DNA of 63,744 nucleotides, the filler included, from Chrysochromulina tobinii (taxonomy: Eukaryota): assembly GCA_001275005.1 (NCBI GenBank). It is 7 parts of 7 records of this genome, joined end to end, with 100 filler letters (N's around TTAATTAATTAA, not from the genome) between each part and the next. Parts side by side here need not be neighbours in the genome. Positions count along the whole stretch, not along the records: positions 15,778 to 30,449 come from JWZX01000883.1; 6 more parts are not named here. One strand, given 5' to 3'. The notes under the pieces were generated by a model. It was given only the letters and a program-made list of their open reading frames with translations, ran no database searches and had not been told where the DNA came from. Below, in pieces: positions 1,467 to 63,562 of this stretch. A program made the position numbers and the translations under genes. Every line of letters starts with the position of its first letter. Position 1 is the stretch's first letter.

Positions 1467-1505
1467 CTCGGGTTCGGGTTAGGGTTAGGGTTAGGGTTAG
1501 GGTTA
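1467..1505 (+). repeat. Interstitial telomeric repeat (TTAGGG)4 with degenerate flanking units
   Basis: CTCGGG TTCGGG (TTAGGG)4 TTA, lying between two divergent ORFs. Confidence 0.9.
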
Positions 1506-13062: not shown

Positions 13063-13636
13063 GTGGCGCAGGGCTCTTTTCGATGCGTGACTTCGTCGTG
13101 ACCGGGCCTGAGCTCTCTTCGTCGTGACCGAGCCTTAGCTCTCTTCGTCCTGACTTCCTTAGACGTGACTTCCTCCTCTTTCTCCTCAAATGACTTCGTC
13201 CTGACGAGACAGAGAGCTAAAGCCCGGTCACGTGACTTCCTCCTCATTCTCGTCGTCCAGGTACACTGACGCTGACTGATCTGGCTCTTTTACGGATCGT
13301 GAGAGCAGGCGGAGACGTGAGAACAGGGTTCGGTGTGGGATCGGCCCTGTTTTGAGCGCCCGTTCCACGGCCGCGTGCGCGCTTGGTGATGTGGCCTTGT
13401 GGAGTTCGATCCCTCCAGTGGAGCGTGGAGATTGGCACATTTTCGTGCGAGGGGTGAGATATTCTTGTTGTTGGGAAGTGTGTGCCTGTCGTTGGTAAGT
13501 GTGATCCTCACGTTCCAAACTATTTCCGGAAATCGACTCGAATTTTCCGATCCAGTTCCGCGGTAACTCTCTTTCGGCTTCGCGCTCGTGTGGTGAAGTC
13601 GGGGCTGCCCTCTGTTTGTCTTGGACTTGCCACCTG

Positions 13637-15777: not shown

Positions 15778-17939
15778 GGCGGCGGCGGCGGCGGCGGCCT
15801 CGGCGGCGGCACGGGCATCGGCGGCGGGGCGCCAGTCGCATCGGTAGTATCGCGTTCACAAGCCGAGCGCCTCGCCAGCCCTGAGCGCCTTAATCTCGAT
15901 CGTCGAGGTCTCACTGCGTGCCCCTTACTGCAAGGCGAGGAGAGGCTTCGGCTGCTCAACTACCAGAACAACGCAATCGCCGAGATCAGCAACCTCCACA
16001 CGCTGCCGTACCTCATCTTCCTCGACCTGTGCGCACACGACTGCCTCCTTGACTGCCTCCTTGAGTGCCCTCTGAGTGCCCCTCTGAGCACCCTCTGAGC
16101 ACACACTGAGCACCCTCTTGAGTGCCTCTCTCATCAGGTACAACAACCGGATTTCGAGCATCTCGGGCCTCGAAGGAGTCCCCTCGCTCCGTGTGCTCAT
16201 GCTCGGCAAGAATGCCATCCGGGCCATCGAGCGCCTCGAGAAGCTGACGAAGCTCGACGTGCTCGACCTGCACTGCAACCAGGTAGGTGGATCGACCCAG
16301 ATTGCACCTGGAGAGCTCTTGATTGCCCTTGATGAAGTACGTGGATCGCCCCAGATTGCACGCTCTTGATTGCGCTTGATGAAGTACGTGGATCGCCCCA
16401 GATTGCACCTGGAGAGCTCTTGATTGCGCTTGATGAAGTACGTGGATCGCCCCTGATTGCGCCGCCTGGTTGCCCCTAAGCGCGCCTCGAGGCGTTGACG
16501 AAGCTCGGCATGCATTGCCATCAGATCGGAGCCATCGACGGCTTGTCGACCCTCTCCGAGCTGCGCGTGCTCAATCTCGCGGGCAACCAGGTGACGAATC
16601 TGATTGACCCCTGATGTGACGAATCTGATTATGGCCCCTGATGATGGCTCCCTCTCCGAGCTGCGCGTGCTCAATCTCGCGGGCAACCAGATCGCGCACC
16701 TCGAGGCGCGCCGGCTCGCCGGCCTCACCTCGCTGGCCGAGCTCAACTTGCGACGAAACTTGATCACGTCGGTGGCGGGAGTGGAGGCGCTGCCGGCGCT
16801 GCAACGCCTATTTCTCTCCTACAACGCCATCAACACGCTCGCGAGCGTCTCGTGCCTGCAAGTACGCTGATTGCGTCCTGATTGCGTCCTGAGTGCGTCC
16901 TGAGTGCGCACGGATTGCATCCTGAGTGCGTAGTGATTGAGTTCTGAGTGCGTTCTGAGTGCGTTCTGATTGCGTCATGATTAATCGCGAGCGTCCCGTG
17001 CGTGCAGGCCGCCGCAGGGTTGCATGAGCTCGCGCTCGACGGAAACCCGGTCGCGTCGGACGCGTCATACCGGCACGCAATCCTGTGCATCGGCCGTTCC
17101 CTTCGCCATCTCGACTTACGGCGCGTCTCCGAGGACGACCGACGGGCGGCACAGGCGCGCTGATGGCCTCTGATTGCGTCCTGATGACCGCCGATTGCGT
17201 CCTGATGGCCTCCAAAGACCACTGAGGACCGCTGATTGCGCCACAGGCCATGGCTCCGATTGCGTCTGATTGCGTCTGATTGCGTCCGATTGCGTCCGAT
17301 TGCGTCCGATTGCGTCCGATTGCGTCCGATTGCGTCTGATTGCGTCCGATTGCGCCACAGGCGTATGCTATGGCTCGCGAGGCCGAGAAGCCACCGGTGC
17401 CATCACCCACCCCCCGTGATCAGCAAGAGAGGACGGGCGACGCAATCAGAGGCGATCAGGATGCAATCAGAGGCCATCAAGAGAGGACGGGTGACGTGAC
17501 TGTTGGGCTCAGGCAGTCGTTGCACCACCCCGCGCCAGCCGCGTCGGCGCCCGCGACGGCGCTCGAAGCTGCCGGTGGCGCCCCGACGTCGTCGCGGGCG
17601 CCGCAGCCGCCGCAGCCACCCTCACGCCCGCTTGGCGCACCGTCAGCGGCTGATCAGTCAGCGGTAGCTCCGCACACCAGTGCCGCTGGCGGCATCGGCG
17701 CCGCCGCAGCCGGACGCGCCGCCGCCGCTGCCGCCCTTCGAGCTCGAGCGCTCGAGATCGGCCAGAGCAGCGCTGAAAGAGGTGGGGCGCCCACCACGGC
17801 GCCGGTCGCGGCACCAGCGCCGTCTCGAGCGCCTCTCTCGCAGGGCCGGTATGCTGGGTATGGCGGCGGCGCTGGTGGCGGCGCCTGTGGCGGCGGCGCT
17901 GGTGGCGACGGCGGCGGCGTTGGCGGTGGTGGCGGCGGT

Positions 17940-17980
<41 letters not shown>

Positions 17981-19206
17981 AGGTTCGCACACGGGTGCCC
18001 AGTACGGCGCCTTGCCACCGCCGGGCAGCAGCAGCAGCAGCGCCGCTCAGACCGTCGGCGAGGGTTCATCACGGGGTTCGTCACGGGAGGAGCGTGGCCA
18101 AATCGAGACGACCGAGATGGCGGGAGGTGCGTCACGGGGTTCGTCACGGGAGGAGCGTGGCCAAATCGAGATGACCGAGATGGCGGGAGGGGGCGTGTGG
18201 CTGCATGCATACGGCGAGGCCGCCGATGCGCTCGAGACGGCGCCGCGCTTCGCCGACGCTGTGGGGGTGAGCTTCTCTTTTCTTCCATTCGAGCGACTCG
18301 CGCGAACGGCCTTCCCCAAGCTCCGGTCGCTCCGGCGGTTACGCGAGCTGCATCTCGAGCACACAGAGCTCCACTCGCTTCATCAGCTCCACTCCTTTGC
18401 ATGCGTGCCTGGCGTCACCACGCTTCGCGTCTCCGTCGAGGGCAACCCCGTGGTGACGCATGCACACTTCCGATCCCTAATTGAGTCTGATTGCAACCCC
18501 GTGGTGACGCATGCACACTTCCTCTCCCTCTGCACCCCATCAGCCTAATTGAGTCTGATGGCATGCTGATGGCCTCCCTCATCAGGTGACGCATGCACAC
18601 TTCCGATCCCTCTGCACCGCAACTATGCCGCTCCTCCGCTCTCTCAACGGCGCCGAAATCACGCGAGATGAGCGCGAGGCCGCCGAGGGCGAGTGGCGCC
18701 GTCTCAAGCGCCTCTACTCGATGGCCCGCAACACATTGCATGCAAGGCATGCGCCGCTGCCGTTACTGCATGCAATGAGCATCTTCGACGGGCCGACCGA
18801 CACAGGCGCCGGCGCTCGAGACGGCGCTCGTGCCGGAGGAAGTGGTGCCTCCGTCACGAGCGCCGTCACGAGCGCCGCGCGCCATGCTGCTGGCGCGCCC
18901 GCGCACGCGCCCGCGTCCGCCGGCGCTCGTGACGGCGCTCTTTCCGGTACGTCCTCACGGGAGATCCAATCTCCGCCCGCGCAGCTCGCCGCCGCCTTCG
19001 TCGATCGCGTGCTCGAGCATGCCTTGGCCGTGGATGAGAAGATCTCGCAGCTGAATACGGCGTGGCCGCACATCGTGGCCACGTACCAGGCGCGCGTGCA
19101 CGCGGAGGTGGTCGACCGTTCCCTCTTCCTCCGCCGGTACCAAGCGGCGGCGAGCGGCAGTGATGAAGGTGCGACACTCGCGCTGCCCGAGATGCCCGCC
19201 GCCTAG
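15778..19206 (+). CDS. LRRC49: Leucine-rich repeat protein 49-like (tubulin polyglutamylase complex subunit), 5'-partial, multi-exon
   Basis: Spliced reading PERLNLDRRGLTACPLLQGEERLRLLNYQNN...LIFLDL|YNNRI...LRVLMLGKNAI...LDVLDLHCNQ|I...LRVLNLAGNQ|I...LQRLFLSYNAI...|ELALDGNPV...LRHLDLRRVSEDDRR follows LRRC49. Introns 16029-16137, 16283-16524, 16591-16690, 16862-17007, 17155-17360 (GC-AG) and 18453-18585; the middle part is uncertain. Confidence 0.85.
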
Positions 19207-38567: not shown

Positions 38568-39196
38568 TGATGACCACTGATGACCACCGATGGCCACTGA
38601 TAATCACTGATGACCACCGATGACCTCCGATGACCACCGATGACATCGGACGACCTCGGATGACCTCCGATGACTTCCGATGACCACCGATGACTTCCGA
38701 TGACCACCGATGACTTCCGATGACCTGTGATGGCCACTGATGGCCACTGATGACCACCGATGACCTCCGATGACTTCCGATGACCTCTGATGACTTCCGA
38801 TGACCTCCGATGACTTCTGATGACCTCCGATGACTTCCGATGACCTGTGATGACCTCCGATGACTTCCGATGACCTGTGATGACCTCTGATGACCTCTGA
38901 TGACCACCGATGACCTCCAATGACCTCCGATGACCTCTGATGGCCACTGATGACCTCCGATGACCACCGATGACATCGGACGACCTCGGATGACCTCCGA
39001 TGACTTCCGATGACCTCTGATGACCTCTGATGACCTCCGATGACCTCGGACGACCTCGATGACCTCCGATGATCTCTGATGATCTCTGATGACTTCTGAT
39101 GACCTCCGATGACTTCCAATGACCTCTGATGACCTCTGATGACCTCTGATGACCTCTGATGACCTCTGATGACCTCCGATGACCTCTGATGACCTC
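38568..39196 (+). repeat. 10-bp satellite (TGATGACCTC/CGATGACTTC variants), about 60 units
   Basis: Strict 10-nt periodicity seen directly; same unit family as the intronic repeats of contigs 2-3. Confidence 0.95.
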
Positions 39197-39291
39197 TCAT
39201 CACTGTCGCCGCGCTTCGTGTACAGCACGCAATCAGGTGCAATCAGGTGCAATCGGGTGCAATCAGAGAGATGAGAGGTACGCCATACGCA

Positions 39292-40714
39292 GCGTTTTGA
39301 GCAATTGCGTATTGAGGCAGCCTTTTGCGTATTACGCAATACAGTTTGACAGGGTTTGCGTATTGCGTATTGCGTATTGCGTATTGCGTACCCGCTTTGA
39401 GCAGCATTGCGTATTGCGTATTGCGTATTGCGTTTGGGCGTACCCACTGGGAACCACCTACACGCGTATTGCGTATTGCGTATTGCGTATTGGGGCGAAG
39501 ACCCTTATTGCGTATTGCGTATTGCGTATTGCGTATTGCGTATTGCGTGTTGCGTGTTGCGTGTTGCGTTTCGCGTTTTGCGCTTTGCGTTTTGCGTTTT
39601 GGGGCTTTTGACCCGCATTGCGAATTGCGTATTGCGTATGCGATTGCGTATTGGGGCTTTGACCCGCATTGCGAATTGCGTATTGCGTTTGCGTATTGCG
39701 TATTGGGGCTTTGACCCGCATTGCGTATTGCGTATTGCGTTTGCGTATTGCGTATTGGGGCTTTGACCCGCATTGCGTTTTGCGTTTTGCGTTTGCGTTT
39801 TGCGTTTTGCGTTTTGCGTTTTGCGTTTTGCGTTTTGCGTTTTGCGTTTTGCGTTTTGCATGCGTTTTGCGTTTTGCGTTTTGCGTTCTGCGTTCTGCGT
39901 TTTGCGTTTTGCGTAATGCGTTTTGCGTATTGCGTATTGCGTATTGCGTTTTACCTCGTATTGCGTATTGCGTATTACCTCGTAATGCTGGGCCAGTAAA
40001 GCGTACGTTTTCCTAACACATAAAACTCATGCTTAGCCAGTAAGGCGTAGCCGTAAGAGTAACCGTCATACCGCTCCACCTGTAAGGCGTCGTTATGCTG
40101 GGCCAGTAAAGCGTACGTTTTCCTAACACATACCCAAACTCATGCTTAGCCAGTAAGGCGTAGCCGTAAGAGTAACCGACATACCGCTCCACCTGTAAGG
40201 CGTCGTTATGCTGGGCCTGTAAAGCGTACGTTTAATAGCTCGTGGTTAGTCATACCGCTCCACCTGTACGGCGTCGTTATGCTGGGCCAGTAAAGCGTAC
40301 GTTTTCCTAACACATACCCAAACTCATGCTGGGCCTGTGCAAGTGCTTCCTAATCTTCTCGTGGTTAGTCATACCGCTCCACCTGTGGTTCATCCTGGTG
40401 TCGCAAAACGCAAAACGCAATACGCAATACGCAATACGCAATACGCAATACGCAATACGCAATACGCAATACGCAATACGCAAAACGCTATACGCAAAAC
40501 GCAAAACGCAAAACGTAAAAAACGCATGCAATACATGTACGCAAAACGCAAAACGCAAAACGGGTCAAAGTGGGCTGGCCCGTACGCAATACGCAATACG
40601 CAATACGCAATGCGGGTCAAAGTGGGTTGATAAATACGCAATACGCAATACGCAATGCAGGCCAAAGTGGGCTGGCCAGTACGCAATACGCAACACGCAA
40701 TACGCAATACGCAA
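39292..40714. mobile_element. Foldback-like element: inverted arms of TATTGCG/TTTTGCG heptamers around a ~110-bp tandem repeat
   Basis: Left arm (TATTGCG)n/(TTTTGCG)n at 39292-39975 and right arm (CGCAATA)n/(CGCAAAA)n at 40402-40714. The module CTTTGACCCGCATTGCG is shared in inverted orientation. Central ATGCTGGGCC.GT repeats at 39985, 40095, 40208, 40279 and 40326. Confidence 0.55.
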
Positions 40715-51006: not shown

Positions 51007-51036
51007 TTAGGGTTAGGGTTAGGGTTAGGGTTAGGG
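51007..51036 (+). repeat. Interstitial telomeric repeat (TTAGGG)5
   Basis: Five perfect units, internal to the contig. Confidence 0.92.
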
Positions 51037-51337
51037 TTTTAGCGTGAGAGTCGATGTGTCACACTGGAGTGTCTGACACTGAAGATGCGCGGAAAGTTTC
51101 GTCGAAGTTTCGTCACTGACCTCACTAAGTTTCGTCATCTCTTTATTAGGCAACCAGTGGGTTTCGTCAGTCAGTCTACCGGTACCAAACCTCCGTACGA
51201 TATAATCATAGTTCATACAAATCTCTAAAGGTCTAATCTGATACATTCTGTCATCTCATTCCTATTTATTCCCTATCGTAAATCTGGGTCAACTGCTGTC
51301 GTGTGTCGATTCAAGATCAACCGCGAACGCGCTCAAA

Positions 51338-58433: not shown

Positions 58434-58910
58434 GGTGAACGCCACAGTGGGGTTGTGGGCGATGGAGGGAGGTGGTGCGAGCGGATCAGGCTTGACAGAG
58501 GATGTGGCGGGAACTGCCGTTGGGGTGGGGGCGGCAGGCGGACTACTGCTTCACGGTCGACGGTCGTCGCATGCTGTATGACGTAAAACGGATCTCCTTC
58601 TGTCCGAGTCGCTACTGGCCTACGGTCGCGGTGGCCTCTAGCCGTGGAGGGCCGCTTGAGTACAGGGCATCTTCCGTTCGTGCGGAGTATGAGGCAGCGG
58701 CTGCCGCACTCGACGCGTCGTCGACGCGACGGCACGCTCGCCGCCCTATGGGCCGCCCACGTCCACGGCCTCGCCGACCTCCCCGGCACCGTCCTCGACG
58801 ACGACGTGGACGAAGACACCGTCGACTATGACGGCGTCCAACCCGCCGGTCCGCCGACCATGCCCGACCTCCAAACCGTCGCCCGCAAATCCGCCTTTCT
58901 CGCCCACCAA
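58434..58910 (+). pseudogene. Degenerate restriction-like endonuclease (RLE) region of a non-LTR retrotransposon
   Basis: RQADYCFTVDGRRMLYDVKRI resembles the R-x-PD...D-x-K motif, followed by E.RA..V..EY...A..LD. Frameshifts on both sides. Confidence 0.5.
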
Positions 58911-60296
58911 GCCGAGGCGCTCGGAAGGGTGCGAAGCAAGCCAACGGCCTGCGATCTGGGCGGCGTCCCCAGCCTCCAGCCACGCGTGTCTCCGAGGGTC
59001 CGTCCTGGGAAGAGCGAGCATGAGGACATCGAGGCGCCGAGCCGCTGCTGCCTCCCGCTGGGCCGTGATGGCGTGCTGCATCCGGTGCTGCGCGGGCACC
59101 GTCTCGGCCGGGTGGCTGAGCAAGCCAGGCGACTGTGTGACATCCACCACGCCATCGACCTCCTCCCTAAGAAGAGCCCATGCATCCGAAAAGGCGTGGC
59201 CCAAGTCCGAGTCTGAGGCGAGGAGAGTCGACATGCGCAAGTCGGGCGTGTCGAAGTCGAAGGACCGGGCGCCGAGGCGGTGCGCGAGCTGAGGGAAGAA
59301 GCCTGGCCGTGTGACGCCATCCGCCATCCGGGTGTCGAGGAGCCGCTCGCACGCAGTACGGAAGGAGGAGCAGAAGGCGGCGGGGGCAAGCGACAAGCGA
59401 GAGCGGATCCCACAGCCTCGGCGCCAGATCGGCAGACGGACGCGCAAACGGAGCTCCTCTGAAGCCGTGGCACCGTGGTAGGTGAGTGCCTCAACGGCAT
59501 CGCGTAGCTCGGCGTCCACAGAGTGGCATGTGGCCTCCGTCTCCTCCGGTGTGAGGTGCTGCAACCAGAAATCCAACCGGGTCTGGATGGCGCTGTACAA
59601 GCAGGACCACATCGCGAACGACGAGGCAGGCTGGAGCTGATGGATCGTAGATCGAATGTAGCTCACAAAGCCCGCCGTCAGCGTGGACATGTACTGCCTG
59701 ATGAACGCCTCATGACCCAACGGCACACCGCCGACGGTGATGCCTGGAAGGAAAGGCTCAATGATGCAGATCTCTCTCTCTCGGTCGATTCGGCTGCTGC
59801 CCATAATGCCACCTCGCGAGATGCCGAGCGCGTCGAGGTCGCGTAGTACAGCTCCCTGAAGAGTGCGGGGCGAGTAGTAGGAACACTTGCGAAACTGCAA
59901 GTGTAGCCCGAGATCGGTGAGACGGTCGGCGAAACGACGGATGGCGGGGAGAACCTCCTCTGGTCGGCCATAGCAGTAGCCATCGTCCATGATGAAGGTG
60001 GCGCCGCCGCCGCCGCCAGCAAGCGCCTCGTGGAGCTCCTGCACGGCCTCCTGGATGAGGACGCAGAAGGCCAACGAAGACTCAGGAGAGCCCTGGGGCA
60101 AGCCCTCCTCAAAGTCGCCACGGTCTGAGCCCGCGAAGAGGCGCGAGCCATCCGGAAGGACGATGATGCCCGCCGGTCCGTACATGGCGTGCATGAGCGG
60201 GACGAGAGAGGCGACCCCTGGCACCGCTGCCATGCGCTGCAGGACCTGCGCTCGCCTCGACTCGTTGTACGCATTGCGGAGATCCGTACCGGTAAT
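58911..60296 (-). mobile_element. 5'-truncated non-LTR retrotransposon reverse transcriptase (CRE/R2-like RLE group)
   Basis: DLRNAYNE (motif A), EGLPQGSPESSLAFC (motif B), FIMDDGY (motif C), GVPLG and RLPIWRRGCGIR (thumb). In-frame stop at 60297-60299 just upstream of motif A. Confidence 0.85.
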
Positions 60297-61023: not shown

Positions 61024-61033
61024 GCAGGCGTTC

Positions 61034-63562
61034 TTGCGCTCTCGCTCGTCTCCGCGACGCCCGTCGGTACCGTGCCGGCGGCGACCGTCGAGACCGAGCG
61101 CGAAGTGGACCATGCTGCAGCATTGGAACGCGCAACAGCGCTCTTCTATCTCCGCTATTCAGCGTCGCTTCTTCGGCGTTGTTGGCAACCAGAACGGAGG
61201 GATGCGCGCCACAGTCCTGTGGCTGCCAGGCCCGCCTCCCATGCTTCGCCTCACACTGCAGAATGCGCGCCTCGCCGACGATGCGAGTGACGCGCGCCCT
61301 GCTCAGGCTATCGACGGAGTATCCGCGATCACTCGGGCTATCGCCACCGAAGACGGTGTGCGCATTGACAACATCACGCGGCCCGAATTGATCGCGAGTG
61401 GCTTCGAGGAGCCTGAACTCGCGGATGGTCCAGCTACCGGATGGCTTCTCCCTCTAGTCCTCACGACAGAAGGCGCAGACGCTTTGCCGTATATCATCGG
61501 CCAGATGTTCTCCATCGACCAGAGTAACAGCAGACCGTCTATGCGCTACTGCATTACGCCCGAGCCGCCCCGGCCATGTGAGGCAGCCTACGCGGCGGCT
61601 TCGACCGTTGACGCTGCCCTCGCGATCGAGCGGCTGGGCGTCGGTGCGAACATACGTGCTGCTCGTGCTCGCGCTGATGATGCTCAAGCCCTCCCAGCGG
61701 TTGGCGTACCGGTGCACCATGCCGAGCCAGCACCGCCAGTAGCGCAACCTCCGCCAGTGGCGCAAGCCGCACCACAGGCGCCCGCCCCGCAAGTTCCGCC
61801 CGTGGCGCAAGCCGCACCACAGGCGCAACCGCAACCAGCCGCTGCCGCTCCTCGAGTCGCTAACGTTCAGCTCCAGAATGCTCCTGTTTTTCCTTGGACC
61901 GGAGAACCTGGTGACTATTCGATGATGAATCAGCTATGCGCGCAACTCTCTCCTGCAGATCTGACCAACATCGAGCGATTTGATCAGCTGGCGCGGGCTG
62001 TGAGCCTTGCCGCTCCTCCAGGATACGCGTTCTCGCCGCCCGACGCAATTATGGCTCGTGTGGATTACGTCCTGCAGCGCATCGTCGATCTCACAACGCA
62101 GTACGATATCCGCTTGCCGCCGATTGCGCAGCCCGGATGGCCTGGTGTCTTCGCTTCCGTGCGCTTCGTCATGCGCCCGACGGCGAGTGGAGCTTCAGCA
62201 GCTAATTCAGCACCCGTCGTGCAACCATCGAACTCTTTCGGCGCTCGCGCTCAGAGCCACGCGTTCCATCAGGCCTCGCATGTCCCAGGCGCGCTGCCTA
62301 CGGAGACACCTGGGTCATCGATTTTGCAATACGGTGCAGCTGTCGCCACTTCTGCCAGCCGCGTCGAAGGCGACCGGACTAACCGCTATGACACGGAGGC
62401 GCGCACGCTTCTCGCTGCCCACGCTACCGGTGCCGACATTGGCCAAGTCCAGCGTCTGGGCGAGCTGATGAGCAACTTGTCGCCGGAACTGGCAATCCTC
62501 GAGGCTGCTCAAGGGAATTTCTTCAACTCAGCTAGCAGTGCGTCCTTCCACGCCACTGTCCTCGCCTTGACTGCCTCATCCAGTAACTTCATCCAGTTCG
62601 CCGCGGGATGCCTTCGGACGCGTATTGGGGTCGACGATCTCATCAGCCCGCTTCCCGAGCGCAAGGCCAATACGGAGAAGTTCATCCGGCTCTTCCTGAC
62701 CGGAAAGATCCTCTCTGGGTCTGAGCTCATGCTTATGGGCACTGGTGGCGCTGAGCTGTTCTCGGCGTTCAAGGAGGTGCCGATGACCGACGCACTATTC
62801 TTACGCGGTCAATCGGTCCTTCAGGTTCTCTCATTCGCATACAGGCTCTCCGACAGGACTACACCGAAGGACTTCTTTGTTGAAGCCGAAGAGCAGATGC
62901 GCATCTGGCGGCGCGAGAAACGCGACATCCAGCGCGCTGCTACTGTCCTCGAGGCCATGCTCCGAGATCTCTCTATCGAGTTTCGGAACTTCTTCGACGG
63001 CCTCCCTTCGGCCTCACTGATGCGCCCGCGCTTCTCTAGTGCGGTGTTTTCTACTCCTGCGTCCAGGCTGCTCATCGATCGATTCGAGCGTGAGCCGGTG
63101 CATGTGCACCCGGCCCCCGTACAGCCGCAGCTTAGTCAGCAGCAGATCGCCGACGCAGTGGCAGCCTCGATTCCTGCCGCCGTCAGCGCCTATATGGCCG
63201 GTCATCTTCCAGCCGCTCTCCTCGCCCCTCAGGCGGGAGCGTCTGGCGGCAAGAAGGCAAAAGCCAAGAAGGCCAAGAAAGAGCCAGCAGCGCCCCAAGC
63301 AGCGCCAGTAGCGCCGCCCGCGCCCGTGGCTCAGCCAGGCATCCCGCCCGGTCTTCCACCCGGCGCACCGCCTGTTCCCGAGTTCAACCTAGTCAATCTA
63401 GTCGGGATCATCGGTGGAGCGCCTCACGATGGAGCGGTCACAGGCGCCGCAATGGCGGCCTTCTCCGCAGCCAATCGGGACGCAGCTGGAAAGCCTCGAT
63501 GCTTCAACTTCTGGCGCCGAGGCGCCTGCCGCAACCCTATCTGTCGTTTCGCTCACGCGTGA
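61034..63562 (+). CDS. Gag/ORF1-like protein of a retroelement with a C-terminal CCCH finger
   Basis: Intronless 842-aa ORF with Pro/Ala/Gln linkers, a basic patch GGKKAKAKKAKK and a terminal C-x8-C-x4-C-x3-H (CFNFWRRGACRNPICRFAH), as in ORF1 of DIRS/Ngaro-type elements. No RT is visible in the window. Confidence 0.5.
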   Translation: MRSRSSPRRPSVPCRRRPSRPSAKWTMLQHWNAQQRSSISAIQRRFFGVVGNQNGGMRATVLWLPGPPPMLRLTLQNARLADDASDARPAQAIDGVSAITRAIATEDGVRIDNITRPELIASGFEEPELADGPATGWLLPLVLTTEGADALPYIIGQMFSIDQSNSRPSMRYCITPEPPRPCEAAYAAASTVDAALAIERLGVGANIRAARARADDAQALPAVGVPVHHAEPAPPVAQPPPVAQAAPQAPAPQVPPVAQAAPQAQPQPAAAAPRVANVQLQNAPVFPWTGEPGDYSMMNQLCAQLSPADLTNIERFDQLARAVSLAAPPGYAFSPPDAIMARVDYVLQRIVDLTTQYDIRLPPIAQPGWPGVFASVRFVMRPTASGASAANSAPVVQPSNSFGARAQSHAFHQASHVPGALPTETPGSSILQYGAAVATSASRVEGDRTNRYDTEARTLLAAHATGADIGQVQRLGELMSNLSPELAILEAAQGNFFNSASSASFHATVLALTASSSNFIQFAAGCLRTRIGVDDLISPLPERKANTEKFIRLFLTGKILSGSELMLMGTGGAELFSAFKEVPMTDALFLRGQSVLQVLSFAYRLSDRTTPKDFFVEAEEQMRIWRREKRDIQRAATVLEAMLRDLSIEFRNFFDGLPSASLMRPRFSSAVFSTPASRLLIDRFEREPVHVHPAPVQPQLSQQQIADAVAASIPAAVSAYMAGHLPAALLAPQAGASGGKKAKAKKAKKEPAAPQAAPVAPPAPVAQPGIPPGLPPGAPPVPEFNLVNLVGIIGGAPHDGAVTGAAMAAFSAANRDAAGKPRCFNFWRRGACRNPICRFAHA

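What the first reader, a model, noticed from the sequence alone, without database searches (positions are those of the whole stretch)
17424..17496. Same repeat in ANTISENSE orientation, flanked by a 19-nt duplication and in frame
CAAGAGAGGACGGG(C/T)GACG occurs at 17424-17442 and 17478-17496, an offset of 54 nt (18 codons). It brackets CAATCAGAGGCGATCAGGATGCAATCAGAGGCCAT, the reverse complement of the intronic unit. The ORF reads through as QERTGD-AIRGDQDAIRGH-QERTGD. This may be a natural control: insertion with flank duplication would happen at the DNA level in either orientation, with sense copies becoming introns and antisense copies tolerated only in frame or in non-coding DNA.
Basis: partly seen in the sequence, partly recalled or inferred. 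Interest (0 to 1): 0.7.

Follow-up and report, generated by a model that had tools for sequence, protein, structure and literature searches.

The report
Backwards intron copy inside an exon
In a haptophyte alga, a 35-base backwards copy of the repeat that fills this genome's introns sits inside an exon between two 19-base duplicates and stays in the spliced RNA; it was likely copied from the intron 240 bases upstream by a DNA-copying slip, the same kind of event that would create new introns when the copy lands forwards.

Summary
Observation confirmed. Spliced RNA contigs run unbroken through both 19-nt copies and the 35-nt antisense repeat, so it is exonic and adds 18 codons to an LRRC49-like protein. 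The suggested GT17397/AG17512 intron was not seen. New: the insert plus junction bases is a 36/41 ungapped inverted copy of 17161-17201 in the upstream intron, the best match of 260 repeat elements. A second in-frame antisense copy in the neighbouring gene also best matches its own upstream intron (37/43, rank 1 of 260). Best reading: a local inverted template switch with misaligned return (0.62). Forward copies with duplications are exactly spliceable in 40 of 55 events (13 by chance) and show junction microhomology (p=0.0009). The 'control' is imperfect. This duplication has no AG|GY. The 3n rule holds in only 4 of 5 antisense cases, which is not significant against 17 of 40 in introns. One antisense copy shifts the frame. 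Three of five show no clear local template, and no empty allele was found. The scan noted a duplication-flanked intron family earlier on other DNA of this genome (e1-2577349).

The parts
17424..17442 (+). First copy of the 19-nt duplication (coding, QERTGD). Its last 4 nt also match the template intron in inverted sense.
17443..17477 (-). 35-nt insert, reverse complement of CTGAT-type intron repeat units (10+11-nt rhythm). Exonic; encodes AIRGDQDAIRGH on +.
17478..17496 (+). Second copy of the duplication (1 mismatch). Its first 2 nt also match the template intron in inverted sense.
17161..17201 (+). Likely template: 5' part of the upstream intron, 36/41 complementary without gaps to 17439-17479
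17155..17360 (+). GC-AG intron (206 nt) of CTGAT repeats with an 8-nt direct repeat at its ends; spliced in RNA contigs of 3 of 4 runs
17361..18452 (+). Host exon (364 codons). Covered by one spliced RNA contig to 17531 and, after a 66-nt skip, to 17679. The 3' end is predicted from a donor at 18453 and ortholog similarity, and was not RNA-tested.
15778..19206 (+). LRRC49-like leucine-rich-repeat gene. Its 5' end lies in the window's N gap and is seen in L046. Five introns are RNA-supported (16029-16137, 16283-16524, 16591-16690, 16862-17007, 17155-17360); a sixth is predicted (18453-18585).

Best explanation
The 54-nt addition is an exonic, in-frame insertion retained in spliced RNA, likely made when a DNA 3' end in the exon switched template to the repeat of the intron 240 nt upstream, copied 35 nt backwards, and re-annealed 19 nt too early, duplicating the flank. 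Shown: exonic status, frame, the inverted match to the neighbouring intron, and 4-nt and 2-nt overlaps at the junctions. Inferred: the template switch itself (fold-back or alt-end-joining type), and survival because the backward repeat strand is stop-free, the period is 3n and the site is a poorly conserved linker. Inferred more widely: the same duplication-plus-repeat event in forward orientation yields the genome's CTGAT introns when the duplication supplies AG|GY.
For: RNA: the X14 contig (601 nt) is spliced at two upstream introns and unbroken over 17356-17531. The X15 contig (515 nt) is spliced and reaches 17488; an X18 contig covers 17356-17485. No 54-nt skip in 5 of 5 RNA runs laid. Local template: 36/41, rank 1 of 260 elements, next best 33, although the library was pulled with a 20-mer of the insert. 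The motif CTGATTGC[AG]TCCTGAT occurs in 3 of 261 elements, all in this gene. Replicate: the L046 antisense insert (period 69, 30-nt duplication) best matches the intron about 300 nt upstream in its own gene, 37/43, rank 1 of 260, next 33. Family: duplication lengths vary, 13-51 nt, median 26, in 59 events (lower bound set by my score cut-off). 40 of 55 non-antisense events are exactly spliceable against 13.3 by chance (max 25 in 500). Microhomology at the junction inside the intron sums to 70 against 43.9 in a simulated null, p=0.0009, in 31 of the 55 whose insert starts directly with repeat.
Against: No allele or ortholog without the insert was found: three protein searches gave nothing, and the orthologs found (50-63% identity in the C-terminal domain) do not align significantly over the site. 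3 of 5 antisense cases have no clear template within 3 kb (L066:9998 rank 39 of 258; L066:13336 and L038 none). Junction microhomology of the five antisense cases alone is not significant (12 against 8.0, p=0.11). Five mismatches separate insert and template. One contig from elsewhere in DNA run X1 matches 37/41, so a remote donor exists. A first, gapped local-score ranking on the 35-mer put the neighbour only 34th of 260. Letting each element offer a 21-nt dimer ties 15 elements at 39/41. Neighbour similarity among forward elements is weak: 16 of 72 in the top tenth (p=0.002) but 8 of 48 unique pairs (p=0.10).
Confidence: 0.62

Rival explanations
1. The insert came from a remote copy, either a mobile repeat (Introner-like, or a truncated retroelement tail primed at a staggered break) or a captured fragment. 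The 19 nt are a target-site duplication, and the likeness to the neighbouring intron is chance or later homogenisation.
For: Variable-length duplications are family-wide. Three antisense cases lack a clear local template. A 37/41 match exists elsewhere in the genome. A 59-nt duplication-plus-filler differs between strains (L023 and L078 against L048). An earlier AI note (e1-2577349) read a duplication-flanked intron family in this genome as mobile; this is not independent support.
Against: Two of five inserts rank their own upstream intron first of 260, and the rare unit rhythm is confined to this gene. The insert has no fixed termini, no inverted ends of 14 nt or more and no fixed duplication length, unlike the 3-9 bp TSDs described for Introners (PMC9860276 section 7).
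Confidence: 0.22
2. The first repeat-like unit is ancestral coding sequence (the AIR of a conserved AIxAIEQAW helix) that happened to resemble the repeat. A plain tandem duplication plus conversion from the nearby intron produced the rest.
For: BLAST places RDQQERTGDAIRGDQDA against RAEEDRT-QAIRAIEQA of P0004, nearly collinear with the upstream anchor. The motif AIE[QH]AW is present in 5 orthologs. The same exon holds a 63-nt tandem duplication with no filler.
Against: Neither the filled nor the in-silico empty version scores above shuffles against single orthologs (p 0.32-0.98) or a five-sequence profile (110 and 102 of 500 shuffles as good). The second copy is followed by VTVG, not AIR, so an extra deletion is needed.
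Confidence: 0.1
3. The segment is usually removed by splicing, through an intron from GT 17397 to AG 17512, a GA-AG 54-nt intron, or an intron of an antisense transcript.
For: Candidate dinucleotides exist. Contigs drop rare isoforms and depth is low (4.5-9).
Against: A spliced contig passes both 17397 and 17512 unbroken, and no such joint appears in 5 RNA runs. The duplication has no AG on the minus strand.
Confidence: 0.04

Closest known systems
Synthesis-dependent MMEJ / templated insertions (PMC2943611 abstract; PMC7407515 passages, including its account of rice tandem duplications with insertions from within 200 bp)
   Same: Insert copied from nearby DNA, possibly inverted, with 1-4 nt junction overlaps; can accompany short duplications.
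   Different: Here the templates are intron repeats and the outcome recurs as a family whose forward form is spliced. The template is 240 nt away. The enzyme was not tested.
Introners, including the Chrysochromulina sp. family with 4-bp TSD (PMC9860276) and Polarella ILE classes (10.1101/2020.10.14.339549)
   Same: Repeated intron sequences with flanking duplications that supply splice sites; one- or two-orientation intron creation is described.
   Different: No end-to-end identity, no fixed ends, duplications of 13-51 nt rather than a fixed 3-9 nt, and this copy is not spliced.
Intron gain by break repair (PMC3020277) and by tandem genomic duplication of AG|GY (PMC4974935, listing and abstract start only)
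   Same: DNA-level origin; direct repeats overlap the splice sites; the duplication supplies donor and acceptor in 40 of 55 forward events.
   Different: The filler is one repeat family rather than arbitrary DNA or none. This copy has no AG|GY and stays coding.
10-11-bp strand-biased tandem repeats in Emiliania huxleyi introns (Read et al. 2013; recalled, paper not held)
   Same: Haptophyte introns with 10-11-nt repeats on one strand.
   Different: As recalled, no flanking duplications or origin mechanism were given; not checked.

Membership tests
Introner / ILE | Copies alike end to end with fixed termini | tested here: not met
   Periods of 53-168 nt, varied units and ends in 59 events; the insert is repeat units only
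Introner / ILE | Fixed short TSD (3-9 bp) and/or TIRs | tested here: not met
   19 nt here, 13-51 nt in the family (shorter ones were below my cut-off); no inverted pair of 14 nt or more inside the insert
Introner / ILE | Removed from mRNA by splicing | tested here: not met
   Retained in spliced contigs; five forward repeat introns of the same gene are spliced
Introner / ILE | Mobilising transposase or autonomous partner | not tested
   No whole genome held
Templated insertion (SD-MMEJ / template switch) | Insert derives from nearby sequence | tested here: met
   36/41, rank 1 of 260; L046 37/43, rank 1 of 260; not met in 3 other antisense cases
Templated insertion (SD-MMEJ / template switch) | 1-4 nt microhomology at the junctions | tested here: inconclusive
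   4 and 2 nt present, p about 0.2 each; five antisense cases p=0.11; forward events p=0.0009
Templated insertion (SD-MMEJ / template switch) | Dependence on polymerase theta or another repair polymerase | not testable with these tools
   Needs genetics
Intron gain by tandem duplication | AG|GY inside the duplicated segment | tested here: not met
   None on either strand here; an exact splice solution in 40 of 55 non-antisense events
Non-LTR retroelement insertion | Variable-length TSD | tested here: met
Non-LTR retroelement insertion | Constant 3' end or tail shared with a full-length RT-coding element | not tested
   No parent element was searched for; no constant end was seen in the five antisense inserts printed

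The most novel reading that the evidence does not exclude
Chrysochromulina introns multiply without a transposase. Existing intron repeats serve as DNA templates for microhomology-primed switches that also duplicate the target. Forward products become introns through the duplicated AG|GY. Backward products become in-frame peptide inserts or, as predicted at L038, introns that use the repeat's reverse-strand CATCAG as acceptor.
Probability: 0.3. Interest if true: 0.78.

Novelty: new variant of a known kind. Interest (0 to 1): 0.55.

Why it matters
Bursts of intron gain are credited mainly to transposons (PMC12130899 passages). A backward, unspliced copy traceable to the neighbouring intron is a footprint free of splicing selection, and it points to DNA template switching as a route by which one intron family spreads. 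The claim is directly testable on the public C. tobinii genome with RNA reads. It also shows intron-repeat sequence entering proteins as AIRG-type peptides, so some such peptides in gene models are real exon content.

Tried and rejected
No whole genome is held, and the metagenome contigs could not be extended by handle, so statistics rest on about 437 kb of non-redundant sequence. Three word-based protein searches for close orthologs found nothing. A viral-contig scan with a repeat motif gave 0. Pfam gave no family for the host exon, the L046 gene pieces or the downstream frame of L038, so those frames rest on the codon model and inspection. Dropped before counts: 4 of 92 loci as lone matches judged by eye (L002, L010, L058, L068). 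Of the 7 strict antisense calls, L060 was dropped as a probable chance motif (0.8 expected), L022 as a miscalled intron array, and L026 as the same event as L066:9998. 177 of 261 clusters had no strict strand call, the finding among them. The first microhomology null ignored boundary extension and was replaced. The RNA fold of 17140-17520 (z -2.47) only reflects the complementarity. Intron-retaining contigs occur for several introns, so no effect of the insert on splicing is shown. The 66-nt skip in X14 has no GT/GC-AG register and is treated as a likely artefact. Literature searches turned up no listing that describes this repeat family or its antisense copies. I read passages of only 8 papers and opened no supplements, and Introner family tables in the supplements of PMC9860276 and PMC12130899 could include it.

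Full report
Setting. The window is eukaryotic, with GC of 50-71% across 2-kb bins. A fragment found by profile search, P0011, shares an identical 50-residue stretch with the host exon's translation and is named a Chrysochromulina tobinii protein by its sources. The organism is therefore C. tobinii or a very close relative. The host gene, joined at RNA-supported junctions, is 57% identical over 398 residues to P0004, an LRR protein. A distant hit is named LRRC49 (P0017), so I call the gene LRRC49-like.

Observation. Coordinates, sequences, the 54-nt offset and the open frame are as stated. The duplication is beyond chance (0 of 200 codon shuffles). The insert belongs to the multicopy CTGAT repeat family.

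Exon or intron. Of 21 runs listed, 6 were RNA, and I laid 5 of them and one DNA run. One X14 contig is spliced at 16862-17007 and 17155-17360 and continues without difference through 17531. One X15 contig is spliced at the same introns and reaches 17488. X18 covers 17356-17485, X16 (intron-retaining) 17317-17470 and X17 17356-17441. No joint removes the 54 nt or uses 17397/17512. The DNA run holds the stretch in one identical contig with no empty form. These are low-depth contigs, all labelled mixed culture, so rare isoforms are not excluded and the runs may not be independent populations.

The family. A scan with a 20-mer of the insert gave 93 stretches, 92 held. After dropping 4 lone matches, the window plus loci gave about 437 kb and 261 repeat clusters, which still include some orthologous copies from other strains. 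A self-trained codon model called 77 sense and 7 antisense under strict rules and left 177 uncalled. Of 124 compact clusters with a flanking duplication, 59 independent events remained. Duplications run 13-51 nt. 40 of 55 non-antisense events can be removed exactly as a GT/GC-AG intron, against 13.3 by chance. At the junction that lies inside the intron, the target's end resembles the repeat more than a simulated null allows (70 against 43.9, p=0.0009, n=31). Arrays are closed in all frames on the CTGAT strand in 134 of 165 cases and on the other strand in 6 of 165.

Antisense cases. After removing a probable chance motif, a miscalled array and an orthologous duplicate, five remain: this one (period 54), L046:12987 (69), L066:9998 (90), L066:13336 (54) and L038:10016 (79). 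All five have duplications of 16-40 nt. None has an exact splice solution on the gene strand. Four are 3n and read through; only this one is RNA-tested. Gene strand has weak to moderate Pfam support for the L066 genes, firm support for L038 (DUF1152, upstream frame) and none for L046. L038 shifts frame. An 82-nt GT...CATCAG removal would give an open frame one codon short, which is untested. Spliceable forward events are 3n in 17 of 40, so 3 of 4 unselected antisense cases is not a significant excess. The duplication here has no AG|GY on either strand, whereas those of L046 and L066:9998 do on the CTGAT strand. Orientation and splice-site content are thus confounded in the proposed control.

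Source of the insert. 17439-17479 is an ungapped 36/41 reverse complement of 17161-17201, the start of the upstream intron, including 4 and 2 bases that belong to the duplicated flanks. Among 260 other elements this intron ranks first, next 33. The 11-nt junction motif is confined to three elements, all in this gene. The L046 insert, with an unusual 9-10-nt unit, likewise ranks its own gene's upstream intron first of 260 (37/43). Against this reading: the other three inserts have no clear template within 3 kb, a 37/41 match exists elsewhere in the genome, a gapped score on the bare 35-mer ranked the neighbour 34th, a dimer-based test does not discriminate, and neighbour likeness among forward elements is weak (8 of 48 unique pairs in the top tenth, p=0.10).

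Mechanism. Inferred: a 3' end at 17442 pairs by 4 nt with 17198-17201, copies 35 nt backwards, and rejoins by 2 nt at 17424, duplicating 19 nt (or the mirror image on the other strand). This works like synthesis-dependent MMEJ or a replication template switch; the enzyme is untested. Survival is inferred from the stop-free strand, the 3n period and the linker position. The orthologs' AIxAIEQAW helix is not recognisable here with or without the insert. That leaves open both the ancestral state and a small chance that the first AIR is ancestral.

Literature seen. PMC9860276: passages and section 7. PMC12130899, PMC10288648, PMC4580454, PMC3020277, PMC7407515: passages found by term. 10.1101/2020.10.14.339549: parts 1-2 of 4. 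PMC2943611: abstract and outline. PMC4974935: search listing with abstract start. Read et al. 2013: nothing (recalled). No supplements were opened. Nine searches showed no description of this family or of its antisense copies.

Verdict. A real, exonic, probably near-neutral insertion. Its value is as evidence on how this genome's repeat introns arise: DNA-level copying with duplication, in at least two cases apparently from the neighbouring intron. New variant of a known kind; interest 0.55.

Noticed in passing
L038:9985-10080 (gene on -): Antisense repeat with a 16-nt duplication and a 79-nt period shifts the frame of a DUF1152 gene. A predicted 82-nt GT-AG intron using the repeat's CATCAG would leave an open frame. 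The site is identical in L055.
   Followed up: partly
L046:12937-13035 (in the window's N gap before 15778): In-frame antisense repeat (period 69) in the gene just upstream of the LRR gene; best match is its own upstream intron at about 13293-13335. L046 also supplies the LRR gene's 5' end.
   Followed up: yes
window 17532-17597: 66-nt skip in one RNA contig (X14) between 5-nt direct repeats, beside a 14-nt inverted repeat, with no canonical splice ends; likely a reverse-transcription artefact.
   Followed up: partly
window 18069-18190: 63-nt in-frame tandem duplication in the same exon with no repeat filler.
   Followed up: no
window 17385-17520: The helix motif AIxAIE[QH]AW seen in five orthologs is not recognisable in this gene.
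   Followed up: partly
L023 and L078 versus L048; L026 versus L066; L007 versus L076: Duplication-plus-filler blocks of 59, 98 and 64 nt bearing a second motif (GCATGCAAG...CACCACGGCG) differ between strains; intron arrays expand and contract.
   Followed up: no
window 38569-39266 and 39356-40714: A 628-nt 10-mer array of the same family followed by a short array in the opposite orientation, then a 7-mer satellite and its inverted counterpart around a 113-nt repeat.
   Followed up: no
window 1470-1505 and 51007-51038: Internal (TTAGGG)5-6 tracts.
   Followed up: no
window 58749-60296 (-) and 61025-63559 (+); L060:17535-20018 (-): Long ORFs that look by eye like retroelement pieces (RT-like, gag-like with a CCCH finger, tyrosine-recombinase-like); labels are recalled, not searched.
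   Followed up: no
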